A DNA stretch of 56,226 nucleotides, filler included, from Dugesia japonica (Eukaryota), in NCBI GenBank assembly GCA_001938525.1. It is 5 parts of 5 records of this genome, joined end to end, with 100 filler letters (N's around TTAATTAATTAA, not from the genome) between each part and the next. Parts side by side here need not be neighbours in the genome. Positions count along the whole stretch, not along the records: positions 1 to 11,042 come from MQRL01642758.1; positions 11,143 to 24,840 come from MQRL01576829.1; positions 24,941 to 33,527 come from MQRL01645430.1; positions 33,628 to 46,368 come from MQRL01613114.1; positions 46,469 to 56,226 come from MQRL01615810.1. One strand, given 5' to 3'. Of this stretch, positions 1,058 to 52,962 are shown in pieces. The translations under genes were made by a program, and so were the position numbers. The notes beneath the pieces were generated by a model. It did no database searches and was not told the origin of the DNA. It worked only from the letters and a program-made list of their open reading frames with translations. Every line of letters starts with the position of its first letter. Within the stretch, counting starts at the first letter, position 1.

Positions 1058-1124
1058 TTTTATACAATTATTGTGAGAATAATTGTTGGACTTAACCATT
1101 ATTCGCATTTGAGATTTCATTAAA
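1058..1124 (-). repeat. Copy of the short hammerhead-associated repeat (3' portion; runs into N gap)
   Basis: tacaattattgtgagaataattgttggacttaaccatt..cgcatttgagatttcattaaa matches the copies at 45383, 47721 and 51171. Confidence 0.85.
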
Positions 1125-1821
1125 NNNNNNNNNNNNNNNNNNNNNNNNNNNNNNNNNNNNNNNNNNNNNNNNNNNNNNNNNNNNNNNNNNNNNNNNNNNN
1201 NNNNNNNNNNNNNNNNNNNNNNNNNNNNNNNNNNNNNNNNNNNNNNNNNNNNNNNNCACAATAGATCTTTGTTACTCAATTCTTTAGATCTTATTGGATT
1301 TTTATTGGTTTATTTTAATTATGAATTTTTATTTTTAAATTAACTCTTAAAAATTTTAAATATTTTTTTTAAATTAAATTGAAAAGTTTTTTAAATGTTC
1401 AATTTTTAAGTTGTGTTTTCATATAATGTTCATATAATAGTGATTTTTAAAAACATTTTATTCGATTACAATTTTTACATATAAGAAATTTTGAAAAATG
1501 TTTTTCAAGTATTATATTATAATTAAAATTTTTAAAATTTTGTATTATTTTTAAAAATTTTTTNNNNNNNNNNNNNNNNNNNNNNNNNNNNNNNNNNNNN
1601 NNNNNNNNNNNNNNNNNNNNNNNNNNNNNNNNNNNNNNNNNNNNNNNNNNNNNNNNNNNNNNNNNNNNNNNNNNNNNNNNNNNNNNNNNNNNNNNNNNNN
1701 NNNNNNNNNNNNNNNNNNNNNNNNNNNNNNNNNNNNNNNNNNNNNNNNNNNNNNNNNNNNNNNNNNNNNNNNNNNNNNNNNNNNNNNNNNNNNNNNNNNN
1801 NNNNNNNNNNNNNTTTTTTAG

Positions 1822-2140
1822 AACATATTATTTATTGATATTGATATAAACTTCTTTTGAAAATTTTTTAATTATTGTAATTGTTGAACACCACATTAGT
1901 CTGACGTTTATCCTCTTTAATTAATATTATTTTCTTTAAATAAATATCACAGTAACATTACTCGTAATTTAAACGTGCAATATTTGATTTTATTCAAAAA
2001 TCCTAGAGATCAGTCTGTTGTTGATTTTCTAGCAAGACAAGCATATCCAAATAACAGGCAATCTCTTTATTAAATCATTTCAAGATGCCACAGAAAAACC
2101 ACATGGATATCTATTTCTTGACTTTACACAACAATGTCCA
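1822..2140 (+). pseudogene. Polinton A32/FtsK-like packaging ATPase, C-terminal remnant
   Basis: Reads NILFIDID (degenerate Walker B), HHISLTFIL, NLNVQYLILFKNPRDQSVVDFLARQAYPNN, then after a frameshift FQDATEKPHGYLFLDFTQ. Matches the Maverick ATPase pattern LNxxYxxLFKNPRD..LARQxYP..DATxxPxGYLxxD. Confidence 0.88.
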
Positions 2141-2492
2141 NNNNNNNNNNNNNNNNNNNNNNNNNNNNNNNNNNNNNNNNNNNNNNNNNNNNNNNNNNNN
2201 NNNNNNNNNNNNNNNNNNNNNNNNNNNNNNNNNNNNNNNNNNNNNNNNNNNNNNNNNNNNNNNNNNNNNNNNNNNNNNNNNNNNNCTAAAACGTCAAAAA
2301 ATATTTTTTGAGAAGAAAATGTATGGAAAAATGAAGAAACAATCGCATAAGAAATCTCATATAAATAAGAAGCAACGATTAAAAAAAAGGAATATATTTA
2401 AAAAACTTGCAAAAAAAAGTGGAAAGAAGCTGAGAATAATGAACGGAAAAACTATAAACAAATAAATAGTATAAATTATTTTAATAAATAAA

Positions 2493-2812
2493 GATGAAAT
2501 TACAAAGAAGCATTATGTTTTTACAGCTTTGATTAAATCATCAAAACCTTTTAAAATGAGAATTTTTCATCATTTCCACCATATGTTATAGATGATTTAC
2601 TTGAGATCATTATAAATATTGTTTGCGGTAATGTAGATTTGAGTGCAGCTAAAAATTAAACATTGAAAAAACAAAAAAAAACTTTATTAACGCTTGTATA
2701 CACAAAAAATAGAAATAGAATGAGACTAGTAATGAGCAATCAAGGAGGTAACTGTTTAGCAGCATTGTTACCAATTGCATTAGCTGCATTAGGCTTAACT
2801 CATTTCAAATAA
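2493..2812 (+). pseudogene. Small basic Polinton virion-core-like protein ending in QxGG plus an amphipathic helix
   Basis: VIDDLLEIIINIVCGNVDLS..*TLKKQKKTLLTLV...SNQGGNCLAALLPIALAALG resembles the conserved Polinton small ORF (NxLxGNVxL...HKxxLxxL...QxGGFLxxLLP). One frameshift and one stop. Confidence 0.7.
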
Positions 2813-2943
2813 ACAATGGTTGACTTTATAGCAGTATTATTAATAATTACACTAGACTTAATTCAAATGAACAATGGGTAAATTGCAATCATTACCTAAT
2901 TTTGAAATGAAATTTCCATCGAATTGACGAAACGGAGACAAAA

Positions 2944-3329
2944 ATGAAAACAATATAGACAAATCCAAAAACCCAGCATGTTTTCAAAGCGTAGAAAGGA
3001 TGATGAAATCAGCTCAAAAATCGAAAAGAAAGACAAAAAATAGTTATTGAGTTAACTAGCGTACAGTCTGAGCAAACCAATATTGAAAAACTAATATAAC
3101 AAAATCATATGGTATTTATGATTTATGCCTAATGGAGATGATTTTATGTACACAAATTAATAAAGATTACAAGTATTTTTTTATATTTATCGTTGTATTC
3201 AATAGATTTGTAAGAACTGCTACGTTTTTATCAAAGGAACTGAAATAAACAATACTATATAAACTGGTATGGATACGAAAACTAAGTTGGATATAAGAAT
3301 CACAAATAGTCAATCAAGACGAAATTCAA
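2944..3329 (+). pseudogene. Polinton retroviral-type integrase remnant with most of the catalytic core deleted
   Basis: N-terminal TNPKNPACFQSVERM, AYSLSKP, GIYDLC and NKDYKYFFIFIVVFNRF are joined almost directly to a chromodomain-end-like SWI*ESQI. These match YxPxxPxSF, AYTLHKP, GIDDLWQ, NKGYKYILTVIDVFSK and NSWI of Maverick integrases. Confidence 0.75.
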
Positions 3330-4276
3330 ATGAAATCAAATAATTTCTTTACAATTTTACCTAATAATAGTAATCCATTAGTTCATCCAAATAATACTGC
3401 TAGTAATTACATTGCTGAGCTTCAAAATCCAATTTACATGGATAGTAGTTGTGAAGTTGCAATGATGGATTTCACCTTTGTATATTCAGCCATGCCGATT
3501 TACAGTCAGTCTAGGATTGATTATGAATTAATTAAACTAATTGAGAAGGAACTAACAATTTTTGTTAACCATAAAGAAAATAAAGTTCTTTTAATTGTTA
3601 CTAGTAAAGACAAATATCAAAATAATATGGAAACACTTATACAATTAAAGAACGAAAATATGATATTTTTTAGTAGTTTTATTTAATTCCATAGTTTATC
3701 ATTTGATACTTTAGAAATATCGGAAAGATTTTCGTACGATGGAGCTTAAGTAACACAAACGGGTAATATTGTAAATCTTGATACTAGTAAACATATTGGT
3801 GATTAAACTTTTACTATTCGCTTTCATACATTTAAAAACTATGATTCCGTTGAACAAAGCCGTATTAAATATTAGTATGCCATTGTATTTATACATTATT
3901 TTTAATTTGAAACCGATTTGTATATAAAGGATTTAATACAACTAAATGATTATATTAAGAAAAACCTTTCAATGTTATTTAAAACGTTTTCATTGAAGCA
4001 AAATGACCTATTTAAATTTGCATTGTCAAATAAAACTAAAAGTTTGAAAAGAATCTTAAGATTCGATAGAATCTTAACAAAATCATTAGGATTAAAAAAT
4101 CACAATATTCTCCATTAAATTTTGGTGATGAACAACTACAATATGAAAGTATCAAGAAACCAAAGATTTCATATGTAAACAATATAGAAATCAATATACA
4201 TGATGATAGGGAAAACTATTCAATTTTGCTGAAGACTCAAAAACTCATTTAACGTTACATTTTAGAAACGTTAATA
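3330..4276 (+). pseudogene. Polinton minor capsid protein (penton), frameshifted
   Basis: N-terminus FFTILPNNSNPLVHPNNTASNYIAELQNPIYMDSSCEVAM and C-terminus NIEINIHDDR...THLTLHFR match the penton pattern FYxTLPSNSS..PxNT..F..L..PI.L...EV and IEIxIxDD..xTLHFR. Confidence 0.85.
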
Positions 4277-4720
4277 ATGAATCCTGATATTGTATCATTG
4301 TATAGTACAAGTCAAGCAGTTGGACAATTACCTTACTTTCTTGGAAAACAGTATGGATTTGGTTGGTTACGAACAATAGGTAGATTTGCTTTGCCTATTC
4401 TTAGACGCATTGGTTCTTTTGGTATGAGAACTGCTCAAGATGTACTAGGTAATGATGGAAAAATACTACCAATTTTTATATCTAATGTATTAGCAGAACT
4501 TGGAAATGTAGTTTCTTCCTTACTTAGTGGAGTAACCAGTATGATTTCAAAAGTAGCAAGCATATTACCACAAAGTATAACAAATAAAATACCGTCTGAA
4601 ATAAGCAATATGATAAAAAATCAGCACAAAGCACAACCAACTAATAAAAAACGTAAAAAAACACATGCATTGCGTATAAACAAACGAATGAGAGCACATG
4701 GAACAATATTTGGAAAATGA
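4277..4720 (+). CDS. Polinton PZ/pX-like core protein (intact 147-aa ORF)
   Basis: SQAVGQLPYFLGKQYGFGWLRTIGRFALPILRRIG matches Q.G..LP.F.G..Q.GxG..x..R.ALP.L. It has a basic C-terminus ending TIFGK, and its stop overlaps the capsid start (ATGA). Confidence 0.8.
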   Translation: MNPDIVSLYSTSQAVGQLPYFLGKQYGFGWLRTIGRFALPILRRIGSFGMRTAQDVLGNDGKILPIFISNVLAELGNVVSSLLSGVTSMISKVASILPQSITNKIPSEISNMIKNQHKAQPTNKKRKKTHALRINKRMRAHGTIFGK

Positions 4721-5878
4721 TTTGTGTTAAAACTGAATTATGTATTTTTGATCAACCACCTCCACAATTTATAATTGGAAGTGGTACTTTTAAAGATGTT
4801 TTTCCAATGAATTTGATTTCAGAATCACAAAGTGATGTAGAGTTCTTTATAAATGGATCTCAAACAAATATTTGGATTTGAATGACACTTTATTGTATAT
4901 TAAAGTGACGGTAGTTAATAAGGATGATAAAGATTTGACTGACACTCATGATGCGGTTCCTAATAATTATATGCTGCATATACTTTTTAAGGATGTTTAA
5001 TAATTTCAAAATTGAAAGTGGAAATAGATCTTATCTTCACAAAGCATTAACTGAAACTATAATAAATTATAACGGGGTTAGTAAGAATATCTGTCTTCAG
5101 CAATGGAATATAGTACGGAAACCGATAGAAAAAAGTCTATTAAAATATCAAAACAATTATCTCTTTTTGACTCATTGCAACTTAATTTCATGGATCAATT
5201 GAAATATTTTATTCCAAGTGTCATATTCGATTGAAAAGAGCATCATCTAAGATTTGTTTGGAATCTACAGCCAACGAACCTAAATATGTTTTACTAGATG
5301 CCAAATTAATAGTTAGACGTGTACGTGTTGAACCCTTAGTACTAGCTGCTCATCAATTTGGACTAAAAAGGCAAAATGCTATTTATCCGATAAGAACCAA
5401 AGAGGTTCTTGCATTTGTACTTAGTAAAGATAGTTCATCGTTTTATAAGGAAGAAATCTTTGGTGATCATCGATTACCTAGATTTATTCTGGTTACATTT
5501 CAAAGAGATGAACAATATAATGGTAGTTATAAAATCTCGACTTCAGCATTTCAAAATCTAGATGCTGTTTCTGTTTCCTGAATATCAAGAAATATATACT
5601 CAAGATTTTACAAAGCATCATTATGCCACAACATATATGCAATCTATAGTAAGAAATATGGGTTATTTGGATAAGAATATTAATTGTGGAATAACACTTA
5701 CTGATTTTAAGAATAATTATCTCTTTTTTTATATAAATCAGAGTCAATTACCTCAACAAGGAAATTTGAGATTGAATATTAAGTTTGCAAAGCTTTGACA
5801 TCATCAGCATATGTTCTCATTTATGGAGTATTTGAAAAATAAATTCAAATTTAAGACAATGGAACAGTATTGGTGTAA
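4717..5878 (+). pseudogene. Polinton major capsid protein (double jelly-roll hexon), frameshifted
   Basis: MICVKTELCIFDQPPPQ...VEFFINGSQ..YLDLNDTLLYIK...AIYPIRTKEV...IFGDHRLPRFILV...YNGSY...GNLRLNIKFA...VLIYGVFE. These are conserved Maverick MCP blocks (CxKSELDLF..PP.Q, YIDL.NT.L, A.YP, G.LRL..KF). Confidence 0.9.
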
Positions 5879-6885
5879 ACAGTCTTATGTATTCTTGAAA
5901 TAATTTCAATAAAGTAAGAGTTATTGTTTAATTTATTAGTTCTATTCATATTGAACGGAGTGCATCAATGTTTCTTGGATCAGCATATTTAAGAAAACAA
6001 TACCTTAATCGTCAATACTCATACAAAAAATCTATGTGGAAAAAATTAGATTGCTGTTTTACAATAAAATTCGATATCAAGATTCATTTACTGTTTATTA
6101 AAAAGATGCAACATTACAGATAAAATATTTATTTGCATGTAATTGTAGTATACAAAATATATGTTTTATTGACCAAAAAAATCTTTTTCATTTATTTTTC
6201 TTTACTGAGACGATAGAAAGATATTAATTTTCTATAATCCCATGTTATAATAAATTATTTTATGGAAATAAAAAGAAGTATTATTCTAATCTATTTATTA
6301 AACAATAAAGCAAAAATAATAATTACATCAATTCCGTCTAAACAAATAAAATAACGAATAGAGTTACAACAAAAAATTTAATTCTCTTTTAGCTCTTCAA
6401 TTCTTTCTTAATTTTGTCGATGAATATTGATCGGACAATGAGTTCAACATAGTCATGTTTACTCAAAAGATTATTGTTAATCCAGCTTAGGAATTGAATT
6501 TCGTCAACGGATCCACTGGTAATTGCATCTGACAATTTTTTAATTTCTTTTCCACTTGATTCATTTTGTCAATGGATCCATTAGTAATTGCATCTGGCAT
6601 TTTTAAATTTCTCTTTTTACATAATTCATATTTGATAATTATTTTGAATTGTAAAAGTGATTAATTTCACGAAAGCCACTCATTATATCCTCGTTACTAT
6701 ACATACTCGTTATTTTTTTAAATTTCTATGTTACCTGTTTAAAAGGAAATTATTAGTTGATATTTTTTATGATTGGTCATTTTGATACAAGTGACATCAT
6801 TCGCTATTTTTCGTTAAAATTGATATGATTTGTTAACGGATTTATAAGACTTGATTTTAATGACATTTTATTGTTTTTCAAAAAA

Positions 6886-7354
6886 ATGTCTATGTTTAGA
6901 AATTTATCGATGTTCAAACCAAGAGATGAACAAAATGAAAAAATTATGGAAGATATCCGGAATAGAAAATTAGAGGAAAATTAGAAGATCATATAGAATA
7001 AGAAATATCAACAGAAAACATCAATCATGAAGAACCAATACCTAATTATAACAAACTGGAAGTAAGTTATGAACATTAGGAACCAGTTAAAGATATTTTG
7101 GAGTTAAAAGATCATTTTTATGGTGAGAAATTTAATTAACAATAATTTATTTAATTTAATTTTTAGAACTATACACTCAAATAATGAATGAACGTTTTCC
7201 AGAATTTGTAGAATGCAATAATATGAATTCAGAACAATATTGGCGTCATGTTTTGATAACAACAAGCATTGATATTTATGAGCTTATAGATGATTTCATT
7301 TTAGAATTGGAAATGGAGTTTGGACATAACAGTAAAAAATTAAAAAGAAATTAA
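6886..7354 (+). pseudogene. Spliced acidic accessory gene of unknown function, next to the Polinton terminus
   Basis: ATG at 6886; a 44-bp phase-1 intron 7123-7166 (GTGAG...TTTTAG) joins ...LKDHFY to an open exon ELYTQIMNERFPEFVEC...EFGHNSKKLKRN*. Exon 1 has two stops and a frameshift. Confidence 0.5.
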
Positions 7355-7477
7355 AAAAATTTCAAAAGTTTTAAAAAAGATTTTCAAAAGAAAAGAAAAT
7401 AAAAAAAGAAAAAAAAATTAACTATCGAAAAATCTGATCTGATCATTTATATCTGAATCGATCAAAATTCTTAAATC

Positions 7478-26825: not shown

Positions 26826-27976
26826 CAGGGGTTTCATAAGTGACGACACTTGGGAAAATTTAAGATGCAAGTTTTACATCTTATTGTATTGTGATATAAA
26901 CGAATTGTAAATCATTTCACCTTATTTAATTAAATATTGATTCAATACTTTCATTCAAGATAAGGATAAGATATCATATGATGTACATTTTTTAAAATAA
27001 CTTTAATAGTCTATTCTACAGAAATACGAATTGAAATGATTCTTATATACACTAGAGAGGGTAACATCTTGTGCCACGGGAGGGAACTTACCATACCAAA
27101 CACCCTAATCATCCAATACCCAATCACAAAACAATCTCAAGGTTAATCCAAAAGATTCACAACGTAGATAGTGTTTTGGATGTTAAAAGGTCGAGTAGTC
27201 CTAAGACTGCCACAGGAGAAGCCCAAATTATTGTGATTCATGAATTCACAGCAGTCTATTAGAAGCATCTCTCACATTACGCTCGTTAGTTCATTTTCAA
27301 TGTTGCGAACTTTAAAACTTCACAAATCCCATCCTTATAAAATTCAATTAGTATATGAGTTTAGCGAAAATGATTTTGATGCATAATTCAATTTGGTGAG
27401 ATATTTACGAATCTATTTATTAAAGATCCGAATCATGTCAGCAAAATATATTTTTCTGCGAGTCAACTTTCTTCTTGTTAGGATTAGTCAAAAGTTACAG
27501 CAGAAAACCCCCATGAAAAATGGAAGCACACACAATATCCACAGACAATACCTTGACGATACCTATCCTCAAGGTTGGATCGGAAGACAAGGTGATTACG
27601 AATGGCCAGCCAAATTCCCAAATTTGTCGCCATTATTTTATATTTTTAAAGGTTCATTTAAAATCTGTTATGAACCTACAAACTTGAAGGATTTGAAGAA
27701 ACATATTGTTGGGGCATCTAGGGCGGTAACAGTTATGATACTGCAGAATATTCGCTGTAAATTTGGAAATCGTTTGAATCATTGCTTATTTCAAAATGGT
27801 GAAGTTTGAACATTCATTATAATGTAATGCTTTTTTATTTTTGTAGCCGAACTGTTTTGTCAATAATATTGAATTAAATATAACGAAATATGTTTTACAA
27901 TTCGTTTATATCACAATAAAAGATGTATAACTTAAATCTTAAATTTTCCCATGTTGCGTCACTTATGAAACACTTA
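26826..27976 (+). mobile_element. Tc1/mariner-superfamily element, DD41D (rosa)-like, internally deleted
   Basis: Preceded by TA. ~85-bp TIRs (cagggg-tttcataagtgacg..gggaaaatttaagat..tgtgatataaacgaattgtaaa and its inverse at 27893-27976). DUF4817-like HTH (HPNHPIPNHKTISRLIQK..SVLDVKRSS), HPYKIQLV, and RQYLDDTYPQGWIGRQGDYEWPAKFPNLSPL. Confidence 0.85.
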
Positions 27977-37440: not shown

Positions 37441-37959
37441 AATTTACTTAACAAATCATTAATTTTACTTAAATTAAACAAAAATTTTTTAATTCCAATT
37501 AATTTAAACAAAAATCATTAATTTCACTTAATTTTAACACAAATAATTAAATTCACCTCATTTTAACAAAAAAACAATTAATTATAAAACATTATTATGT
37601 AATCATTACGTAATCAACACATAAAAAAATTCAACCAGTCAAATTTAAGCCACAAGTTACGTGGCTTGATGAGTTTGAAGTACCCATAGGATCATCAATA
37701 TCAAAACTCAATTCCATAGAAAATTTATTCATTAAAAAAACTATAACTAACACTATTATTTATTCAAAAAATTAAAATCCCATGTTTTAATTGGTGATCA
37801 TTTTTCAAATTATTTAAAAATTATTTAAAGATTTTAGTTAATTACTGAATCGTTATTTAAAATTTAAAACCAAATATTTGTTCATTCAAAATTTTAATCT
37901 TATAGGGTCCTTCAAAACGATCTTCGTTCTTGTTTCAACTTTCACTAAGACTTCATCAC

Positions 37960-40900
37960 AGTTACAATATCCTTGTCCTCTATCATATTTCAATAACAAT
38001 TAAGATTAGAAACTTTATTAAATATAAATTATAGCGTTAATTCGTATTATTCAAAAAACGTTATTTCGAATTTCCATAACTCTCCCTTCCTTCAAAACGT
38101 TTTCCATCTTTTTAGCCATTCTATTCTTTTGGTTTTCAAACCATTTGGAAACTTGATTTCAACTTGATGTGCTTATATAAATCTCATTATCTGGTATGGG
38201 CCTTCATACAAACCGTTTTCTTTTGTTTGTGTGGTTCTACTCTGACTAATACCCAATCTCTCTCTTTGAAGTATCTCGATTATCTTTCTCGATATTTTCC
38301 ATTTTCCGCGCCGCATTCTCCAAATTCTGTGGCATTATCTCTTCTCTGTCCTTCCTTTTGAGAGCGTTTCATCTTTGGTATGCAGATTTATCTTTCGACC
38401 AAATACGATTTCGAAAGGAGAGAATTTTCTTGACTCTTGTATTGTAGCATTAATACTAACTTCTAATCTCGGTAATAATGTCTCCCAATCTTTCTCATTA
38501 CATTTCCCTTTTATCGATATCGTAATCATATCCCTCACTGTTCNGATCATCNGTTCTACCAAACCATTAGACTGGTGTTGATACGGGGAACTAAATTCCT
38601 GTACAATTCCAAATTTTCCTAGTTTCTTTGCCATCACTTGACTTTCAAACACTTTACCTCTGTCAGTATCCATTTGTTCAAAATTATCATTAAAATCGTC
38701 TCTTCATCCATTTTTGAAACTGTAGATAAGCTGACTAGTTTGCTAAAACGATCAATAATTACCACCATATATTTCTTTCCATACTTGCTCTGTTCCATAA
38801 AACCTATGTCCACTACGATTTGTTCTAAAAAATTTGGCTTCTCCTATGTATAAGTGTTTCTTTTGTACAACTTTCTTTTTGGCACACATCTCACATTTAG
38901 CAATACTTGTATTAATTGTCTTGGGCATCCCTGGCCAGAAATAAACATTTTGTAGGTATGAAAATAACTTTTTTCTTCCCAAATGACATAAATCTTCATG
39001 AATTTTTTTTATCACTTTATCAACTATGCTTGTTGGAACTACTAACAAAAATTTATTTCCTCTTTCCACTACTAACAAATCATTCACTATTTTCAATTCG
39101 TGCTTTAGTTTATTCCAGTAACTTTCTTGGTCACTCTTTTTAGTCTCTAAACCTAATTATTGCAACATTGCTACACAACTTTGCATTTCTGAATCTTCTG
39201 TCTGAGCCTGTCGAATCATTGTAATTATATCGGTCTCATGCTGAATTCCATCGATATGTTTCACTCTCGCCTTTTCTCATTTTGCGCCTATGTGTTTCAT
39301 GCTACATTGTGAACATAAACTTGCCTTTAGCCTCGACAACCCATCCGCAATGTTGTGTTCTTCGCCTGTTCTATACTTGAGTTCAAAATTATACTCTTCT
39401 AAATTCGCGGATTGTGGACTGATTGGTTTCTTTGTGTTGTTTAGAAACACCAATGCTTAGTGATCCGTTCTTACTAGAAATCTCTTTCCATACAGATATT
39501 GTTTGAATTGTTGTACGAATTCGTGTATAGCTAATAGTTCATTCCTTGTCACACAGTATCCTTTTTCATGAGCTGTCAAATGTTTTGACCCATACTAAGG
39601 ACTGTACTGATAGCCCCAAAACTAGCATCAGTGTCTAAAATGAACATCCAATCCTCTCTGGGATATTTTAATACTAGAGCACTACATAGCTTGTCTTTGA
39701 ATGCATTGAAACTGTTCTGGCATGCTTCTGTCCAAACTAATGGTTTGTTGCAACCTTATGTTGCTTCATATAAAAGAGCTGCTATCTTTGCATAATCTTT
39801 TATGAAAAGTCTGTAGTAGTTTGTTAGTCCGAGAAACGAACAGAGTTTTGAAGAACATTCTGGAACTATAGCATTCTTAATCTCCTGAATCTTAACTCCA
39901 TTAGTGCGTATACTAGTTGCACTAACTGTATGTCCCAAGTATAACACTTATTTCTGATAAAACTTACATTTCTCTGGGTTTATTCTTAACCCCGAGTCTC
40001 TGATCCTGTAAAAGACTGTCTCTAAAATTTTGTTATGTGATCCTCCAAAGTTTTTCCGTACACCAGAATATCGTCCAGATATACAATAACTCCTTTGAAA
40101 ATTAATTCCTCCAATATCTCGTGCATTAACTTTTGAAAAGTGGCCGGTGCTGTAGCTAATCCAAAAGGCAATCGGTTAAATCTGAATTGGTCTTCCTTTG
40201 TACTGAAAGCAGTGACATCCCTTGAATTTTCTGATAAATCCACTTGGTAATAAGCTTGGCCCAGATCAATCGATGAAAATAATTTTGAACAAGATAAACA
40301 ATCTAATAACAACTGAATGTCTGGCATTGGAAAAGAAACTTTTTCTGTTCTCAAATTCACTTGTCTGTAATCCACGCACATTCTTATCGAGCAATTTTTT
40401 TATCCACAATCAAAAATGGGGAATTCCAAGAACTATTACAATTGCTGATTACACTAATCGTTGCTAATTCTTTAATCATATCTTCAATTTTCTTTTCTAA
40501 ATGCATCGGCTGTCTTCTAGGGTGCTGCACTATTGGATCTACTTTAACCTTAATTTCATGTATTACTTTTCTCGTATGCCCAATATCGAACTTTGAAGCC
40601 ATGAATATCTCACCAAAATTCTGGATTAACTGAACCAGTTTTCTGTTATCTATTCCTTTAAACAATTTCAACGCGTTATTTTGTCTATCTTCATCAGAAT
40701 GTGTTATCTTCAGACTCTCATTTTCGATGTTATTTATTTTTGTTAATTTCACTCTAAAACGTTGCATTGTATCAATACCGCCTATTAATTCTGGGTGGAT
40801 CTGTCTAACTATGATGACTTTAACCTTTCTGACATTCTTGTTCCATTGTATAGTTAATTCTGCTATACCCAACCGTTTTTCTCAGTCCTTATTAGATGCC

Positions 40901-41640
40901 CCATTTAACCTGATATTAAACATCGACAACAACGGCTTTCCAATTTTAATCCAATAGTTTTCACTCATGACTGTCACCGAAGCTCCTGAATCCCACAGCA
41001 TCTCTAACTTTACTCCATTAACATATACTCTACTCCAATCTCGCCCATCTTCTTTTTCAAACTTCTCTCCTCTTTCATCATTTCGATTAATTTTATCTTT
41101 TTCTATACTCACTCCATCGACGAAGTGTAAGCAATGGAATCGTTCTTGTTTTTTCCCATTACTATACCATGATCTGTCACGCTCTCATAGTCTTCTTTAG
41201 AATCGTCCAATTTCTCTTAAATACACAAAATTTTAGTGTTTCTTCTACTAGACGAACCCTATACAATCGAACAAGATCTAAAATTATGACCAGACTTGCC
41301 GCAAATTAAACATCTGTCTTTTAATGAGCATTGGTATCGTTTATGCCCATGTTCTCCGTAGCAATAACATTGTCTGTCTTGGAATTTTTCTTCACGAGGT
41401 TCTGGAAATCTTCTCTGTCTATTAAAATAATATCTTGCCAAATATTGGCATGGATACTCTTCGTTTCTGTTGATGCTGTTGATTTTTTACCGCATTTACC
41501 CTTTTTGGCGTGGTTGCCAGTTAAAATATTCTTGTACTCAATCATATTTCAATAACAACTACAATTAGAAACTTTATTAAATATAAATTATAACATTAAT
41601 TCGTATTATTCAAACAACGTTATTTCGAATTTCCATAACT
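37960..41640 (-). mobile_element. LTR-bounded Ty3/Gypsy retrotransposon (decayed, gag largely deleted)
   Basis: 122-bp LTRs AGTTA...TAACT at 41519-41640 and 37960-38081 (10 mismatches by eye), perfect 5-bp TSD ATCAC, PBS TGGCAACCACG, PPT GAAGGAAGGGAG. Domains: two CCHC knuckles, protease LWDSGAS, RT YLDD, RNase H FILDTDAS, integrase and GPY motif. Confidence 0.95.
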
Positions 41641-41657
41641 ATCACCAACCTTGAATT

Positions 41658-41779
41658 TCATTAAAATAATGAAAACGCATCGATCAAAATCAAATTTATT
41701 TGTAAAGAAATTCAAATTTTCGACAATAGTCTTCTTCAGGAAAATCCAACAATTATTCTCGCAATAACTGTAATTATAA
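41658..41779. mobile_element. Hammerhead-associated repeat copy with 5' inversion and 11-bp TSD
   Basis: TSD aaccttgaatt at 41647-41657 and 41780-41790. Minus-strand UUC-CUGAAGA-A-GAC-UAUU-GUC-GAAA-AUUU-GAA at 41711-41742, then the opposite-orientation 3' end. Confidence 0.8.
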
Positions 41780-42599
41780 AACCTTGAATTATCTTTTAGT
41801 CAATATCTCTTTATTTTGTTCTTTGAGAATTTTTCGTACCATTTTTATCTGCTTATTCTCTTTCCAAATACGATTTGACACAAAAAAATTTTCGACTAAT
41901 CAAATCACTGGAAACATCTGTGAGCCCAATCAAATTGCAGCCTAAAAAAAATTTTACCCCGTTACCACGACACAGTGAACAAAAAGCATAAGTCTGAAGT
42001 AGTTATATCACCAGTGTTTTTAGCCGGTAGAGTCCAACAATACCCTAATTTATTCATGGTATAAGCGAAAATACCGCATCTTCTCACTAGGAGGAAGAGA
42101 TTTGTAAAGAAATATTAAAAATTTCTCTGTCGTGTGCAGAAAAAACTTTTTAATCATCATGTAAATTTTATCACTTTTTAAGTGAGCGACTTAACTATTT
42201 ACTTTTTATTGCAACAAAAAAAACAATCACTATTAACTATTTACTTAAACACGCTTCTTATCAACTATAAGACTTTTAAGTTTCAATAGCTAATTGTTTA
42301 ATAAATAATATATTGCAATATTAATAACACAATTGAAATCTGCAAAATGAAATCGATAGCAAATTGATTTCCAACGGCTTTGTAAATAGAATTCTGGGGG
42401 CAGTGTGAAGTATACTATAATTTANAATATATCACGATTTATTTGAATTACAACCTTTTAGTTATTATATATACTCATAGATTATAATTATGACCTGTAT
42501 AATTTACAAAACGCCGACGAATTACGTTTAAATATAAACAAAATATAAGCAATTGAAAATCTTTCACTTATATTAAAATTTCCTATTTCTCGAGAAAAC

Positions 42600-44605: not shown

Positions 44606-44694
44606 AATTGGTCTTTCAAATCTTTTTGTGTTTAATTAATCTGATTTATTGTATAGATTGCTTCATTGATTACATAATCAGAACTTTCAATATA

Positions 44695-45311
44695 AAGGGT
44701 GCACGAGTAGAATTGGCACGTAAATGCAATGAAGAAAATATCTCTAAAACACTACAAATTTGAAACTTTTATTTGAAATTTTACAAATATCAGTAATATT
44801 AAACATCAGAGATTGTAATTACTCAATAAAATCACCATCAGCATTAGTTACGAGAACAGGCCATTTTAACAACACCAGGAGACAAATTTTGAAATGCCTG
44901 GAATATTCTATTTCGCAGTTCGTTTTTGTTATTGCAGGCAGTCTTATTTGTTATCGCTTTAACCGCGCCCCATACGTAATAGTCAAGAGGATTACAATGA
45001 GAGTTCGGAGGCTACAATTCAGGAGTGACATGGTCATAAAAGTTTTCTGACATCCACTTTTGAGTTTTCCTGGCCATGTTTTCTGGAGCTGAATCTTGTT
45101 GAAACACGTAAGGTTTCCCAGCGCCAACTCTTTTTATCCAAGGTTTTACGACAGTTGAAAGTAATTTTTTATACATATCCTGATTCGCATTCCATTTAGT
45201 GAAAAAAGCATTGATCACATTAAATTTATCCATAAAAATAATGATATAAATGCATTTCTTTTACAAGATTTTACATTTAGAAAATGGCGCCAATTCTATT
45301 CGCAAACCTTG
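44695..45311 (-). mobile_element. DD37D (maT)-like transposon, internally deleted
   Basis: TA-flanked imperfect TIRs (cgagtagaattggc / gccaattctattcg). Peptide VVKPWIKRVGAGKPYVFQQDSAP..KTQKWMSENF..*PPNSHCNPLDYYVWG. Confidence 0.85.
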
Positions 45312-45382
45312 TATAAGCATTTTTTTAAAAATTAATAATTAAATATTGTTTTAAAAAAGGATTTTAAAAAAGGATTAAATAT

Positions 45383-45533
45383 GGTTTTATAATTACAATT
45401 ATTGCGAGAATAATTGTTGAACTTAACCATTGATCGCATTTGAGATTTCATAAAAATAAAGTAATAGCTTCGATCAAATTAAATTGTTGTTTTATGGATA
45501 TTTAAATGTTCGACTACTGTCTTCTTCAGGAAT
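45383..45533 (-). repeat. Longest colinear copy of the hammerhead-associated repeat
   Basis: Minus strand AUUC-CUGAAGA-A-GAC-AGUA-GUC-GAAC-AUUU (GAAA mutated), continuing to the conserved 3' end ...caacaattattctcgcaataattgtaattataaaacc. Confidence 0.8.
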
Positions 45534-46294
45534 GACTTTTTAATGAATTTAATCGATATCAGAACATTATTATAAAATTGTTTATATTTTATTAAAAATT
45601 TTATTGGATTATTATATTCAAATTAAAATTTTACTTTAAATTTAATCTCAAAATTCCAATTAAATTGAAATTTTAATTATTAACTTTGTATTTTATTTTG
45701 ATTTTTAAATTTTTAAAATTCTTTCAATTTGCAAAAGTTTATTTAATGATAATCATCATTAATTATGTTAATTTTATTTAATTGAAAAAGAAAATATATA
45801 AAATATTTGTATTATTATGAAATAGAAACAGGCTACATTTATACACTTCACAGGAAAAAACCTGAACAAATTTTGATCAAAGAGGATAAACCTAAAATCA
45901 ATGTGATTTATAATAATTATGACAACTAAAATAAATATCAATAAATCAAATTTATTAAAAAATCAAAAAAATTCATATAAAAAAATACTTGAAAATTTTT
46001 AAAATTCTTCTTTAACAAAATTTAAAAAATTACGTATTTTTTATTAATTATAACATAAACAAAACCTCAAAAATTTATATTAAAAAATTTATATTAATTT
46101 ATATTAATAAAACATTAAATAAAACACAAATTCTAAATTTTAAATAAAAAAAATAATATAATATTACTTTATTTTAATGAAATATTAATTATTGCATCTG
46201 AATATGACAGATACTCTATTGAAACATGCAGTACAAATATATATATTTATTCAGAGTTTTTATTAAAAAATTTCTGTTTTTCCTTTAATATTTA

Positions 46295-46355
<61 letters not shown>

Positions 46356-46368
46356 GTTATAATAAAAG

Positions 46369-46849: not shown

Positions 46850-47640
46850 TTCGCTGCCATGATTGGCAATTATTTTTAGAGAAGCACCTGAAATCGGTGT
46901 CTTTGTTTTATTTTTATTTTCTGGCCGCTGATTGGTCGAATCTTAGAATCCCTACCATACCCCTCTNNNNNNNNNNNNNNNNNNNNNNNNNNNNNNNNNN
47001 NNNNNNNNNNNNNNNNTTCGCTGCCATGATTGGCAATTATTTTTAGAGAAGCACCTGACAACGGTGTCTTTGTTTTATTTTTATTTTCTGCCCGCTGATT
47101 GGTCGAATCTTAGAATCCCTACCATACTCCTCTGGAAGGTGGTACGTTTTTTCTTTTTAGGGTCCTAATTGCACTTGCCTATTTTCTGCTCGATTTTTCT
47201 TGTTGGAATATTTTCTGACGACCGGGGCCAGAGTTATCCGTAAAAAACAGATTTTTATCCAATTTCGTTTGATTTCTTGTTTAAAATTAATTAATTTTTT
47301 CAGATTAATTAATTATTTTATATAATATTTTTCCTTATTAATTCTTTTAATTTATTAATTTTTTCTTAATTATGGATCATATGTTGCTTCCATTTTCCTT
47401 GTATCTTCTTTATTTTACCTTCATTTCTTTTTANNNNNNNNNNNNNNNNNNNNNNNNNNNNNNNNNNNNNNNNNNNNNNNNNNTTTGTTTAAAATTAATT
47501 AATTTTTCCATATTAATTAATTATTTTCTATAATATTTTTCCTTATTAATTCTTTTTATTTATTAATTTTTCTTAATTATGGATCATATGTTGCATCTAT
47601 TTTCCTTGTATCTTCTTTATTTTAACTTCATTTCTTTTTT
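46850..47640. repeat. Two near-identical tandem duplications, each straddling a 50-N gap
   Basis: 46850-46966 matches 47017-47133, and 47278-47432 matches 47485-47639, each with a few mismatches. Confidence 0.8.
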
Positions 47641-47720
47641 TTATGGTTGCTTTTCGTTTTATTTCTTTCTTTGGTTTATTCTCTCTTTTGGTGAGTGTTT
47701 CACCCCAACAGTTGTATTAA

Positions 47721-47833
47721 TATAATTACAATTATTTTGAGAATAATTGTTGGACTCAACCATTGATCGCATTTGAGATTTCATTAAATTAAAATCTTCG
47801 ATCAAAATATTGTTTTCTTTTTTATATTTTTGT
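47721..47833 (-). repeat. Hammerhead-associated repeat copy (core region lost in the N gap)
   Basis: tataattacaattattttgagaataattgttggactcaaccattgatcgcatttgagatttcattaaa..cttcgatcaaaat. Confidence 0.85.
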
Positions 47834-48207
47834 NNNNNNNNNNNNNNNNNNNNNNNNNNNNNNNNNNNNNNNNNNNNNNNNNNNNNNNNNNNNNNNNNNN
47901 NNNNNNNNNNNNNNNNNNNNNNNNNNNNNNNNNNNNNNNNNNNNNNNNAGATTTTCCAAAACTAGTCATTCGTGACAGCATGCGAGGAAAGATCCAGTAT
48001 AAAAACAATCGCCATAGAGAAAAAATAGAGGTTTTTAGTCTTAAGTCAGAGAAGTTTAAAAATATCAGTTATTTGTAAAAACTAGTTGAACTAATTGGTA
48101 TTATTTATTTGAAAAATAATTAAATATATTTTGTGGAGATATTTTTATCTATTGAAAACAACTTTCCGTATTGTTATCTGTGGAATTTTATTAGCCAGGA
48201 TAGAAAT

Positions 48208-49650
48208 CAGTAGCGTAGCCAGGAATATGTGAAGGGGGGTTTTNAATTTTTTCAGAATTTTTGGTTTTGTTTACTAACATAAAAGAACAAAGACGCCAAG
48301 TATTAAATAATGACGTCATTAGCCGATTCTTTAAAGTACGGAGACAACGTATGAGACATCAGAAAAAAATAAATAATTATAGTGTACTGAGAGTACAGAC
48401 AGGTGTTATGAAATTGCTGCATTTTTTGAAGAATATTAAAAAAAATCGTCAAATTATTACAATCAAAGAATTCCATCTTGTTTTGATGTTCAATTTAAAC
48501 TTCAGTTGCCCCCCATTTTTTTAACTATATTTTGTTGCAAAATAGATTGTTTTAAAGATGATTTTTTAAACATTCTTATAACATCTCTTAACATGTTAAT
48601 AATTTGACCAAAATCAATACTCAATGTCATAACTTCTTTATTTTCTTCAACTAACTCCAAATTGCTATCCGAATACAGATCATCTCTGAAATCTTCTTCT
48701 ACATCATCTTCAATTTTATTATCAACAAAATTTTCGATATCGTCCAAGCTTAGAGTTTCATTAGGAGTAGAATTTTTTGGTATATAAAAACAGTCCATTG
48801 CGGCCGAATCACGTGCATGATTATGGCAAAGCTGACTTAAAACATCTAATATTTTCCCGTTTTTTTTTCATTACAGCTGCTGGGTNNNNNNNNNNNNNNN
48901 NNNNNNNNNNNNNNNNNNNNNNNNNNNNNNNNNNNNNNNNNNNNNNNNNNNGCTTCAAATGAATGTTTAATAGTTTCTTCATTTCCTGCTTAACTATTTC
49001 TGTTAAACCAATTACATAGCATTCATCTTTATTTGATTCAATTCAAACTACACGAACTGTTACGTTTACATAACGTAAGATAGNGCGATCTGCCTATTCA
49101 TCCACAGTAATAGCTAATTTAAGATTTGCTTTTTTAAATTTTTCAAATTTATTTCGCAGTTCAATACATTTTTTCTTTATAAAGGCTGATGATGCATTTT
49201 GAAAAAGTTGTCGGACTTTTTGGCTTTTTATAACTTTTTTGTTTCATCAATTGTTGCGACTTTTGACAATATTTCATTTAAAGACTGTTTTTTACAAAGC
49301 TCAAAATAGTATTTGTTTCAATTTTTGGCTTTTTCTGTGGAACATTATTTTATTCATAATTTTCACTTGATACAGATTTAGATTTAAATATGTTGTGTCG
49401 TAANTTCAAATGATTAATCATAAGAGTGGTTGAACTTCTACACCCAAAGTTTGCATTACAGGTGGCTTCACAAATTTTATTTTTTCCAAATACTCGAATA
49501 TCAAACAGTCAATTAACACACGAATATATTCGAATATCAAGTATTTGAATATTCAGTTTGGAATCTCTAAGTCGCATCAAAAAATGAAATTTTTTTCATA
49601 CGCCAATGGGGGGGGTTTAACCCCCAAACCCCCCAATGCCTACGTCACTG
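48208..49650 (-). mobile_element. hAT element with a perfect 8-bp TSD, carrying a transposase fragment
   Basis: TIRs CAGTAGCGTAG / CTACGTCACTG, TSD ATAGAAAT on both sides. Minus-strand BED-like SSTTLMINHL, LAITVDE, CHNHA..AMDCFY and IINMLRDVIRMFKKS. Confidence 0.88.
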
Positions 49651-51171
49651 ATAGAAATGATTATCAGTTTTTATCATTATAAAAAAGAGCAACCACGAAA
49701 AAATCAAACAGTAATATTTCGATTTTATGTCACATAATTTAATATTGTTCCAGTCCTAATTCCAGTCTTGGCCATTCATTCCCAAGAAAGATCAAACTGA
49801 CTATTGCTCCCAATGAGTTGAAAATTAAAGTTACACTTCAAAAGTTTTGATGAATGATTTCGAATTGCAAATTGAGCTCCATCCATAACATAAAATTGAA
49901 TTACAAGGAAATATTTTTAATCGATGATGCCTCCTCCTTTATTCGTCCAAAAGAGTATTATGTTAAAGCTCCTTCGTGAGTGTTTGACAGAATGAATCTG
50001 GTTTATAAATTTATTTTTTAGCACAATAAAACTTTAGTAAAAAATGATTAATTAATTTAATGAATATTTTAAAACTAAATTACGATGCGAAGTAAAGTTA
50101 AATAATGAAATAACTAATGATCGATAAAATGAAGAAAAGTTGTATTTCTGAATTGTTTTTTTTGTGATATACCATTCCAGTAAGATTAAATAAAGAAAAA
50201 ATATAGTGACAAGGTTTAATGAATCTCTAAATGATAACTTTTTAATATGAATACGAAACGAAGCAAATATTACCACTGAACAAATCAACGAATGTTTATT
50301 GTCAATAAAATAGAGTACTTGACTTATGGTCAAGTAAATAGAGTAATAAAATAGTTCCTAAGTTGTCTCTTATAAGGCAAACTCAGTAGGATTATAACAA
50401 ATCAAATATACAATAGGAATGATTAATGAATCTTTGGATGAATATTTTAAATAATTAAGGAACGAAATAAATCTTAATAATGAACAACATACGAATAATT
50501 AGAATTTAAAAAATTAACAAAAATGTTAACCACAAATTGTTACTGTAAAGTAAAGATGCAGTATTTAATAAAGTAAATAAAACAGCCTCTCACTTAAACT
50601 TTTGTAGAAAATTAAATAAATCCATCAAAGTGAATTGAAGGAATTTAGAATTTATAATTTAATTTAATAAATTAGTAACGCGTTTTAATAACATATTTTG
50701 TTATTTCTCTTAAAGGAATTGACCATTTTTAATTTAATGAAATAGTTCAATAACATATTTTGAGATTGATTTTGTGCACAGTATTTGTTATGGCAACAAG
50801 TGAGCGACTTGCAAGGTAGTCTGGTATTTTATATAGTATAAATTGAAATAATCGAATTTCAGATATCGGTAGTAATAGAAGGGAAATATAATGATGAGAA
50901 TATAATGTAAAATTAATTTTAATTTTGGATTTCGGCTTAACGGAAAATAATAGTTGCATTACATTGATTCTTCATTCTCGTCTTAAATTTAATTAGGCAC
51001 GTTGGGAAATTCTTATTTAGTTATTAAAATATTTTAATTTCCATTTAATATTAAATGCAACCGTAAAGATTTTTAAGTTAAATACGATTAATAATATTTT
51101 ATGTAATTATAACTTTAATTTGGTTTACATTTTAAATAACTTTTTAGCTAATTATAAATTAATTTTAGTGT

Positions 51172-51341
51172 TTTATAATTACAATTATTGTGAGAATAAT
51201 TGTTGGACTTAACCATTGATCGGATTTGAGATTTCATTAAAATAAGATAAGGCTTCGATCAAAATAAAACAAAATTTGAACTTTTTTACAAATAAATTTT
51301 GTTTTGTTTTGATCGAAGCCCTATCTTATTTTAATGAAATC
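51172..51341. mobile_element. Fold-back copy of the hammerhead-associated repeat with a 12-bp TSD
   Basis: TSD taattttagtgt at 51160-51171 and 51342-51353. Inverted duplication agatttcattaaaataagata.ggcttcgatcaaaa / ttttgatcgaagcc.tatcttattttaatgaaatct. Confidence 0.85.
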
Positions 51342-52501
51342 TAATTTTAGTGTACATAAGAACAATTCTGGTGAACAGTATTTTAGACTTTAACTGTAAT
51401 AAGTTGAAAATAGAGTTTTTTATTAATAAAATTTTATTGGATATTAATAAAGTTTTTTATTCATTTCGACTTTATTTTGCTAATTTTTAAATGTACCCGT
51501 GTATAACACGCACGTGTATTTGCAATAGAAATGCTACTTTTTTCTTGTATGACACGCGTGTTATACACAGGATTGTAGGGCAGTCTAGTTATTAATTTGT
51601 TTTTTGGTTATCAGATATTATTTTACCATAGGTTTATTAATAATAATTAGGTTGTTTACGAATTCATTTTATTGTTTATATTTTCATTTATTAATAATAA
51701 TAATTTTGTTATAGCCGTATTGAAGTTCTTGTTTAACCATTTATTTTTGCCATAAGTAGAAATGTTTACATTCAAATATTTCTATGTCGTATTTTCTATT
51801 TAAAAAGCAGAAGTACTTTAAGTCGTTATACGAAGCAATTCCAAATTTAGGGTTCAATTAGATATTTCTTTAGGGTTATGTGATTTAATAAAACAATATT
51901 GTAGAGTTTCTTGCATCGANTGTCATAGTATGGTATTATAGTAATTTCTTAGATAGTGACTATAAGGTTATTATATAAAACTGGATGGAGTAGCAAAGTA
52001 GGAAGGACAAAAGAAAACACGGCATGCGTAGGTTATCAACCGGATCGTGACGCTTGGCTAGGATTATGAATTTGATAAATTCCAATTCGTAATTAGATTA
52101 TCAAATTTTAGTTTATCAAAATTTATAATTTCATAAATATGCACTTCGGATCAACCATATCCATTAATGTATCAAATGTAATAGTGGGTACATCTTTGAG
52201 AAACAATTTGGATACAAGGGTTAGAACAGGATAGATCCGATATAGGAGCCAAGGTACGTCGATTCAAACAACTAATACGGGTTACCACAAAGACCCGCTG
52301 GATTCCGGAAAAGAGGACAGTTAGTGAGTGTACAAGTCATGTGGCTTCTAATCATCTCTTAGATGAACGAAAATACCTAAAAAAAGTTATAAGATAGATA
52401 ACGCAAAGGAAAGATGTACCGGACAGAACATCAAAAGCCTAGAAGCAAAACAATATTAATTTTTTAGTTCTTGCTATTAAATTTAATTTGCCTCTGTCAG
52501 G

Positions 52502-52879
52502 CAGTGGCGTACCCAATGGATGGTATAGGGGCTTAACCCCTCCCCTTTGGTGTATGAAAAAAAATTCATTTTTTGATGCGACTTCATGTGCCTAAAAAAA
52601 TTTCATCCACTTAAATAATAAAAAAACAACAATTTTTATATAAAAATTGTTTTTCCTACTTTATTATTTTTTCATCATTATTAATTTATTTACAGTAATA
52701 CTGTCACACCTGTCTGTACTCTCAATACACTATAATTATTTTTTTTTCTGATGTCCCATACCTTGTCTCCGTACTTTAAAGAATCAGCTAAGCACGTCAT
52801 TATTTAATACTTGGCGTCTTTGTTGTTTTATGTTAGTAAACGAAAACAAAAATTTAAAACCCCCCTTCATATATTCCTG
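52502..52879 (+). mobile_element. Non-autonomous hAT MITE related to the ends of 48208-49650, in opposite orientation, one tip missing
   Basis: 52502-52584 matches the reverse complement of 49570-49650, and 52706-52879 matches the reverse complement of 48221-48406. Confidence 0.85.
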
Positions 52880-52962
52880 ACGAAAACAAAGTCGAAAATT
52901 CGAAATAATATTAAGATATATAAAAAAGAAAATGATTATTTCGATGAAAGCTTTTAATTTAA
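52873..52962 (+). repeat. Hammerhead-associated repeat, 5' part fused to the hAT MITE
   Basis: AUUC-CUGACGA-A-AAC-AAA-GUC-GAAA-AUUC-GAA. The downstream ataaaaaagaaaa...ttttaatttaat resembles the 47721 copy. Confidence 0.55.

What the first reader, a model, noticed from the sequence alone, without database searches (positions are those of the whole stretch)
1058..52962. Short non-coding retro-mobile repeat carrying a minimal hammerhead ribozyme (retrozyme/Penelope-satellite-like), six copies
Seen: a ~150-nt family at 1058, 41658, 45383, 47721, 51172 and 52873, spread over three linker-separated pieces, with a conserved 3' end (...caacaattattctcgcaataattgtaattataaaacc). Three copies show UUC-CUGA(A/C)GA-A-[stem II]-GAA(A/C)-AUU(U/C). 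The GAC/GUC stem is intact in two copies and has one mismatch in the third, while loops differ (UAUU, AGUA, AAA). Stem III is a loopless AAUU palindrome. Two copies have 11- and 12-bp TSDs plus 5' inversions. Established: Penelope-like elements carry minimal type I hammerheads with palindromic stem III, thought to act as dimers, and often insert with inversions. Inference: this is a non-autonomous ribozyme-processed RNA mobilised by target-primed reverse transcription, possibly by a Penelope RT/GIY-YIG like the one at 17-18 kb, or it is the solo terminal repeat of such a family.
Basis: partly seen in the sequence, partly recalled or inferred. Interest (0 to 1): 0.8.

Follow-up and report, generated by a model that had tools for sequence, protein, structure and literature searches.

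The report
Penelope retroelement end fragments with ribozyme
This very common short repeat carries a tiny hammerhead-ribozyme motif and is likely the leftover end piece of a Penelope-type jumping gene, a known kind of element; several copies start right at the ribozyme's edge, which may mark where the RNA begins.

Summary
The repeat is real: seven loci in the window (the six listed plus an old one at 15.3 kb), and about 21,000 contigs laid on it in each of two public runs. Majority letters give a complete Penelope-type minimal type I hammerhead. The anatomy is that of a Penelope-like element (PLE) terminal repeat plus tail: fixed 3' end beside a stem-loop, steep 5' truncation, tail-less inverted pieces all starting about 60 nt from the 3' end, 7-12 bp TSDs ending in ATT(A), and an ATG frame open through the tail. 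It is not a ribozyme-processed retrozyme: depth shows no step at the predicted cut site, copies keep the whole ribozyme, and no tandem array or RNA joint was seen. The PLE at 17-18 kb is not the parent by sequence; no parent ORF was found. One point stands out: similarity and several inversion junctions stop at the first base of stem I (45533), which is the +1 of an initiator-like TCATTC, suggesting run-off to a transcription start. The scan noted a stem-I-edge boundary before in a fish-type genome (unchecked note). Known kind, modest interest.

The parts
45385..45533 (-). Reference unit (149 nt): hammerhead at the 5' end, body, tail with stem-loop at the 3' end
   Evidence: sharp 3' end at 45383-45385 and drop of similarity at 45533/45534
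45500..45533 (-). Minimal type I hammerhead: stem I 5' arm 45533-45530, CUGAAGA 45529-45523, extra A 45522, stem II 45521-45512, GAAC (majority GAAA) 45511-45508, AUU, H17 45504, predicted cut 45504/45503. This copy is degenerate at 45508 and 45503
   Evidence: majority letters (45508: 98% of X1 depth, 122 of 122 X22 reads; 45503: 90% of X1 depth, 103 of 133 X22 reads)
45530..45535 (-). Initiator-like TCATTC whose +1 A (45533) is the first base of stem I and the recurrent 5' boundary
   Evidence: sequence; consensus TCAKTY / YYANWYY from -2 (PMC4581360 table); 36 of 721 ATTC words in the window are preceded by TC
45384..45445 (-). About 60-nt tail, absent from all inverted pieces; holds the 9-bp stem-loop 45417-45395
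45383..45451 (-). ATG-started frame (MKSQMRSMV...) open to the 3' end in four copies; candidate N-terminus of the parent ORF
   Evidence: no homolog found; open 22 codons is weak on its own
45534..45690 (-). A/T-rich upstream extension (12.6% G+C over 45534-45700), likely the 5' part of the terminal repeat
   Evidence: contigs spanning ribozyme and extension (table 8); 70% identity to 1257-1385, above all 1778 control segments
41647..41790 (.). Fold-back insertion: 11-bp TSD, inverted tail-less piece (about 41655-41743, - strand) with the only fully intact hammerhead (core 41739-41733), then direct partial tail (41744-41782, +)
51160..51353 (.). Fold-back insertion: 12-bp TSD, direct piece with tail (- strand, to about 51277), inverted tail-less piece (+ strand, about 51271-51341); the two pieces overlap in sequence and join on a 7-nt microhomology lying just 5' of the predicted cut
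47721..47833 (-). Copy with tail; 5' part hidden by N run 47834-47948
1058..1385 (-). Copy with tail (1058-1124), N run over the ribozyme (1125-1256), upstream extension (1257-about 1385)
52873..52965 (+). Tail-less copy with hammerhead (core 52877-52883, G10.1 lost), joined by 7-nt microhomology to the end of a terminal-inverted-repeat element
15263..15470 (.).
17120..18361 (.). Decayed RT + C-terminal GIY-YIG PLE of another family, with inverted terminal repeats and its own hammerhead-like cores; same kind of machine, not the parent by sequence

Best explanation
The repeat is likely the terminal module (pseudo-LTR with minimal hammerhead, plus tail) of a Penelope-like retroelement, and the copies are likely short insertions made by a PLE reverse transcriptase-endonuclease from RNA that the ribozyme had not cut. 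Shown: fixed 3' end, steep 5' truncation, a second fixed end about 60 nt upstream used by all inverted pieces, TSDs ending in ATT(A), whole ribozyme retained, no step at the cut site. Inferred, by analogy to the Anolis Poseidon element (PMC11167929): the endonuclease nicks both strands at ATT in A/T-rich DNA; one nick primes synthesis at the end of the tail beside the stem-loop, the other primes at the tail-less site; both cDNAs stop early and are joined end to end, often on microhomology, giving fold-back insertions between TSDs. Most copies are only the last 30-70 nt. Those that reach the ribozyme tend to stop at the first base of stem I, most simply because the template RNA starts there (weakest step); a minority run on upstream, as expected from the downstream terminal repeat of a longer transcript. 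Whether the parent still encodes protein was not determined.
For: Depth falls from the 3' end towards the ribozyme in DNA contigs (X1 3.8 million at 45400-45416, 14,544 at 45519-45535) and in raw RNA reads (X22 about 1,590 vs 86). Three of three inverted pieces in the window start within 45443-45449 of the reference copy and lack the tail; 52873 also ends about there; one go-back joint lands on 45445 in both DNA runs (table 5c). All three TSDs end in AATT or AATTA next to the inverted piece. Majority letters give the features of the PLE minimal hammerhead in PMC4209133: extra base between 9 and 10.1, G10.1-C11.1, palindromic 15.2-16.2, short stem I. An ATG frame stays open for 22-23 codons to the 3' end in four copies, as in Adineta Pen2a where pLTR plus tail hold the first 22 amino acids (PMC3846280). 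PMC11167929 reports two internal start sites bounding the tail, ATT cleavage, extension of both strands, and uncleaved RNA as the main template. The genome holds Penelope/Poseidon-type RT-GIY-YIG elements.
Against: No link to an RT-endonuclease ORF was seen: no genome was available, the tail peptide has no homolog (0 of 277 candidates at E up to 10), tblastn with fetched PLE proteins hits nothing upstream of any copy, and common tail variants are not biased to silent codon positions. The tail is about 60 nt, longer than the 30-40 nt in the papers read. The depth drop at 45533 may partly be a limit of conservation, because upstream parts of 45383 and 1058 are only 70% alike, under the 80% cut-off. 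The 3' stem-loop is well supported in one copy (z -2.35) but not another (z -1.24), and the whole unit folds no better than shuffles (z -0.70). No compensatory base change was seen in four ribozyme copies.
Confidence: 0.75

Rival explanations
1. A self-standing non-autonomous mini-element of about 150 nt with its own start site, which has lost any coding parent and is mobilised in trans by another PLE's protein (SINE-like).
For: Recurrent 5' boundary at 45533 with an initiator-like word; very high abundance; several subfamilies sharing the tail (loose-end clusters at 45436-45460); no parent ORF found; upstream extension only 12.6% G+C against 29% for the PLE endonuclease region. Non-autonomous pLTR-forming PLE derivatives are described (PMC8557442).
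Against: Two of the window copies and several contigs extend 125-140 nt or more upstream; most copies are far shorter than the unit, so would lack the start site; an A/T-rich stretch before the ribozyme is what a terminal repeat would hold anyway. PMC3846280 found no cross-mobilisation between its PLE types.
Confidence: 0.15
2. A non-LTR retrozyme: tandem units are cut by paired hammerheads, circularised, and the processed RNA is reverse-transcribed.
For: Intact majority hammerhead with palindromic stem III; unit length in the 150-450 bp range; a few single-contig go-back joints (4 among the 12 rows shown of table 5c). Retrozymes are reported to derive from PLE terminal repeats (bioRxiv 10.64898/2026.07.22.740005).
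Against: No step at the cut site in DNA or RNA depth; copies are not permuted at the cut site; no array in the window; no joint shown is carried by RNA reads and no start or end pile-up in two RNA runs; described retrozymes mostly carry canonical hammerheads in tandem arrays (PMC7229834). The RNA libraries (oligo-dT; cDNA of unstated selection) would miss small circles, so that part is weak.
Confidence: 0.07
3. 3' ends of a LINE or SINE of another class, the hammerhead being incidental.
For: Fixed 3' end, 5' truncation, TSDs and inversions are general TPRT marks.
Against: No poly(A) or simple-repeat tail; inverted pieces start at one fixed internal site and can duplicate the direct piece (51172), unlike ordinary twin priming (recalled); the motif has the PLE-specific features.
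Confidence: 0.03

Closest known systems
Terminal repeat + tail of endonuclease-bearing Penelope/Poseidon elements (Anolis PAc, PMC11167929; Adineta Pen2a, PMC3846280)
   Same: Hammerhead about 100-150 nt before the 3' end, A/C-rich stem-loop at the end, two fixed ends bounding a tail, tail-less inverted copy, 7-12 bp TSD, ATT at the target, ORF-like frame in the tail, initiator-like word, no reads ending at the cut site.
   Different: Tail about 60 nt, not 30-40; parent ORF not seen; candidate ATG lies 70 nt after the start of stem II, not at it; recurrent 5' boundary at stem I not described in the passages read.
Solo minimal hammerheads of metazoan PLEs (Cervera and de la Pena 2014, PMC4209133)
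   Same: Extra base after A9, G10.1-C11.1, loopless palindromic stem III, short stem I, dispersed single copies attributed to truncated PLEs.
   Different: Stem II is only 3 bp plus a 4-nt loop (7-8 bp in the Schistosoma families); majority H17 is U.
Non-LTR retrozymes (PMC7229834; bioRxiv 10.64898/2026.07.22.740005)
   Same: Short, A/T-rich, non-coding, type I hammerhead, PLE-related.
   Different: No tandem arrays seen, minimal not canonical ribozyme, insertions not cut or permuted at the cleavage site, no circular junction seen.

Membership tests
PLE minimal type I hammerhead | CUGANGA and GAAA core | tested here: met
   41739 and 52877 directly; 45529 by majority letter at 45508; decayed at 15346
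PLE minimal type I hammerhead | Unpaired base between 9 and 10.1, G10.1-C11.1 pair | tested here: met
   41739 and 45529; G10.1 lost at 52877 and in the 15.3 kb copy
PLE minimal type I hammerhead | Palindromic 15.2-16.2 / no stable stem III | tested here: met
   AAUU at 41739 and 52877
PLE minimal type I hammerhead | Compensatory covariation in stems | tested here: inconclusive
   None in four window copies; variation shown falls in loop II, but only 40 of 117 rows were shown and rows are not linked
PLE minimal type I hammerhead | Self-cleavage as dimer or with protein help | not testable with these tools
   Needs in vitro assay
Endonuclease-bearing PLE insertion unit | Fixed 3' end with 5' truncation | tested here: met
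   Depth profile and loose ends at 45384-45385
Endonuclease-bearing PLE insertion unit | Inverted 5'-truncated copy lacking the tail; tail at one end only | tested here: met
   3 of 3 fold-back copies; tail about 60 nt, longer than reported
Endonuclease-bearing PLE insertion unit | Short TSD at A/T-rich, ATT-containing target | tested here: met
   11, 12 and 7 bp in 3 of 7 loci; none found for the other four
Endonuclease-bearing PLE insertion unit | Repeat flanks an ORF with RT and GIY-YIG | tested here: inconclusive
Endonuclease-bearing PLE insertion unit | Partial tandems | tested here: inconclusive
   Four single-contig go-back joints among 12 of 25 rows shown (table 5c); none in the window
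Non-LTR retrozyme | Head-to-tail tandem repeats each with a hammerhead | tested here: not met
   0 of 29 tandem rows in the window involve the family; whole genome not examined
Non-LTR retrozyme | Processed monomer as the transposing RNA (ends at the cut site) | tested here: not met
   No depth step at 45504/45503; copies keep sequence 5' of the cut
Non-LTR retrozyme | Abundant linear and circular monomer RNA | tested here: inconclusive
   1,949 of 13.6 million X22 reads and 53 of 10.5 million X21 reads laid, both strands, 97-98% running into unlike sequence; library types unsuited to small circles

The most novel reading that the evidence does not exclude
The element's RNA starts at the first base of hammerhead stem I (an initiator +1), so internally primed reverse transcription on the 5'-proximal repeat runs off the capped end and yields a fixed 149-nt (or tail-less about 88-nt) 'strong-stop' cDNA that is inserted on its own. 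That would explain why genomes are full of solo minimal hammerheads, and would place the ribozyme where a cut removes the first 30 nt and the cap ahead of an ATG at +83: a switch on translation or RNA fate rather than a step in making the template.
Probability: 0.3. Interest if true: 0.6.

Novelty: new member of a known kind. Interest (0 to 1): 0.33.

Why it matters
As a family it is ordinary: one more abundant PLE terminal repeat, in an A/T-rich animal that is probably a flatworm. Its use is as a natural data set for PLE mechanism: it reproduces in genomic copies the two initiation sites, the ATT target and the uncleaved template reported in vitro for one lizard element. The function of PLE hammerheads is still open in the papers read; a 5' boundary at stem I that coincides with an initiator gives a direct, cheap test (cap mapping) of where the ribozyme sits on the RNA and so of what its cut could do.

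Tried and rejected
Rfam: no hammerhead among 8 matches at E up to 5; the microRNA-precursor hits at 51241-51330 are the fold-back insertion. Pattern scans for the tail or the ribozyme found 0 loci in metagenome contigs, viral contigs and prokaryote genomes; PLE alignment against viral contigs: 13 pattern hits, 0 confirmed. Tail peptide: 0 of 277 candidates, nothing significant among 178 fetched proteins. The 17-18 kb PLE as parent: rejected outside the core. The 38 kb repeat as an empty site for copy 41658: left flank matches, right flank does not pass (25 of 300 shuffles as high). Upstream similarity for copies 47721, 51172, 41658 and 15.3 kb: not above shuffles. No TSD for 45383 or 1058. No TATA at -30 or DPE at +28 by eye. 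Folding energies do not single out the ribozyme. No RNA holder listed in the run search. Summed contig depth was not used as copy number. Lunse et al. 2017 is not held; seen only through a review passage. Supplements of PMC11167929 gave no searchable hits; its Fig. S2 coverage plots may already show a 5' boundary. Searches for a printed account of the stem-I/start-site link: 'Penelope, hammerhead, truncated, pLTR', 'Penelope, transcription start site, pseudo-LTR, initiator' (68), 'Penelope-like, hammerhead, transcription start' (78), 'Penelope-like, strong-stop' (79): none seen in listings or passages read.
Full report
Setting. The window is five contigs joined by N44-linker-N44 spacers, 25.7% G+C. 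A kinase C-terminal piece at 32.7 kb has unnamed homologs at 80-88% and named cestode homologs at 62-64%, so the source is probably a flatworm. No genome is held.

The observation. All six places belong to one family, and a seventh, older copy lies at 15263-15470. Tail regions of five copies are 89-96% alike and the old one 72-77%. A strict minimal-hammerhead descriptor gives 1 site (41739) against 0 in each of 100 shuffles; a looser one gives 2 (41739, 52877) against a mean of 0.02; a plain pattern gives 2 against 0.18, with 1 of 100 shuffles reaching 2. Three details need correcting. Copy 45383 reads GAAC and has lost stem I pairing. Copy 52873 has no tail, has lost G10.1, and its ATTCCTG is shared with the end of an unrelated terminal-inverted-repeat element seen again at 48220-48406. 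The ribozyme region of 1058 and 47721 is under N. TSDs of 11, 12 and 7 bp were found for 3 of 7 loci.

The family in public runs. I laid four of 24 listed runs on 45230-45710 at 80% likeness. 20,897 of 8.8 million contigs (X1) and 21,769 of 10.2 million (X4) were laid, so the family is very abundant; summed depth is not a copy number. Depth jumps at 45383-45385, peaks over the stem-loop and falls steadily towards the ribozyme: the shape of 5'-truncated retrocopies with a fixed 3' end. Raw RNA reads show the same slope (X22 about 1,590 at 45400-45416, 86 at 45519-45535). Majority letters restore GAAA at 45508 (98% of X1 depth; 122 of 122 X22 reads) and the stem I G at 45503 (90%; 103 of 133). 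Among the 40 of 117 rows shown, the other ribozyme variants (45515, 45517, 45518) are in loop II, and the stem-loop variants are in its loop (45405) or closing pair (45395); 77 rows were hidden. The majority motif thus has a 4-bp stem I, CUGAAGA, an extra A, a 3-bp stem II closed by G-C, GAAA, palindromic AAUU and U at position 17: the features listed for PLE minimal hammerheads in PMC4209133 (parts 1-2 of 4 read).

Insertion anatomy. All three fold-back copies begin their inverted piece within 45443-45449 of the reference copy, about 60 nt short of the 3' end, and 52873 ends near there. One go-back joint lands on 45445 in both DNA runs. In 51172 the two pieces duplicate the same 50-60 nt and join on a 7-nt microhomology. 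The three TSDs end in AATT or AATTA beside the inverted piece, with 1-3 nt of overlap with the element. An ATG at the tail boundary opens a frame of 22-23 codons in four copies. These match published PLE features: inverted 5'-truncated copy and a tail at one end only (PMC8557442, passages); pLTR plus tail holding the first 22 amino acids, 8-10 bp TSDs, an initiator-like word (PMC3846280, passages); two internal start sites in an A/C-rich stem-loop bounding the tail, ATT cleavage, both strands extended, uncleaved RNA as main template, no reads ending at the cut (PMC11167929, parts 1-2 of 4). Against: the tail is longer than reported, the open frame is weak alone, tail variants are not biased to silent positions, and the peptide has no homolog.

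The ribozyme does not make the template. If cleaved RNA were copied, insertions would start at 45503. Depth hardly changes there: X1 27,483 vs 27,075 at 45508, X4 26,453 vs 24,951, X22 133 vs 122. Copies 41658, 45383, 52873 and 15.3 kb hold the whole motif, and the 51172 junction uses letters 5' of the cut. No tandem array involves the family (0 of 29 rows). RNA reads come from both strands, 97-98% run on into unlike sequence, no start or end pile-up is listed, and none of the 15 of 35 joints shown is carried by RNA reads; these look like copies embedded in host transcripts. The libraries are unsuited to small or circular RNA, so expression of a discrete RNA is untested. Retrozyme features were taken from PMC7229834 (passages) and bioRxiv 10.64898/2026.07.22.740005 (part 1 of 5 and passages).

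The 5' boundary. Depth drops between 45518 and 45534 (X1 16,955 to 284; X4 16,590 to 262; X22 104 to 4), and 4 of the 5 opposite-strand joints shown end at 45533, with four different partners (45425, 45485, 45493, 45495). In the window, 41658 abuts its direct piece within 1 nt of this base, 52873 joins foreign DNA on a microhomology that starts there, and similarity of the 15.3 kb copy ends there. Position 45533 is the first base of stem I and the +1 A of TCATTC, which fits both initiator consensuses from -2 (PMC4581360 table); 36 of 721 ATTC words in the window are preceded by TC, so the match is modest and was noticed after the fact. Penelope of D. virilis has an internal promoter with an initiator, but there an intron lies between start and stem I (PMC2377424 passages). 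Caveats: copies 45383 and 1058 share an upstream extension (85 of 122 columns; score 95 above all 1778 control segments, maximum 85) and several contigs span ribozyme and extension to 45583-45671, so the unit is not always 149 nt; because that extension is only 70% alike, the depth drop could partly mark the edge of conservation; one joint may be locus 41658 itself; letters between joint sides may sit in hidden rows. I put a true preferred end at about 0.7 and run-off to a start site at 0.3.

The parent. The 17-18 kb element is a decayed PLE: its C-terminal piece finds 329 proteins at E up to 0.001; 6 of 8 scanned carry RVT_1 and 2 carry GIY-YIG. Its two terminal repeats share 52 nt at 92% and have their own cores, but nothing outside the core resembles this family. 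Autonomy is therefore open.

Verdict. Real feature, known kind: short PLE terminal-repeat insertions with a minimal hammerhead. Interest 0.33, carried mostly by the testable link between the stem I edge and a start site. The dimer-cleavage paper (Lunse 2017) was seen only through a review passage (PMC6765202). The twin-priming contrast and the hAT, Tc1, Gypsy and Polinton labels are recalled, not tested, except where a call is cited.

Noticed in passing
window:17120-17440 (- strand): The inverted piece of the 17-18 kb PLE carries the RT catalytic stretch (YVDD at 17408) and reaches its hammerhead core (17226) about 60 codons later, so it looks like an internally deleted copy joined head to head with the direct RT-thumb-endonuclease piece; both ends sit on (TAA)n repeats.
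   Followed up: partly
window:18285-18330 (+): The stop codon of the GIY-YIG frame (18286-18288) lies inside a UUGAGAA word followed by a hairpin and GAAA: by eye a U3-A8 hammerhead variant, different from the core in the inverted repeat; it did not pass the descriptor.
   Followed up: partly
window:52502-52879 and 48208-49650: Two copies of a terminal-inverted-repeat element with CAGTRGCGTA-type ends (hAT-like, recalled); the 52 kb copy lost its last 12 bases where the hammerhead repeat joined it.
   Followed up: partly
window:2033-5581: Broken ORFs resembling Polinton/adintovirus ATPase and capsid genes by eye; two pieces had no Pfam match.
   Followed up: no
window:38270-41184 (- strand), repeats 37959-38095 and 41518-41655: Protease-RT-integrase fragments of an LTR retrotransposon (by eye) between two 138-bp direct repeats at 89%; copy 41658 abuts the second repeat.
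   Followed up: partly
window:44700-45297 and 27387-27809: Tc1/mariner-like transposase remnants (by eye); the first is repeated in the genome (raised depth at 45230-45297).
   Followed up: no
window:10009-10734 (- strand): hAT transposase remnant (Dimer_Tnp_hAT).
   Followed up: no
window:45512-45521: With the majority letters about half of the depth makes stem II plus loop a perfect 10-nt palindrome, which could give a second intermolecular pairing surface in a dimer.
   Followed up: no
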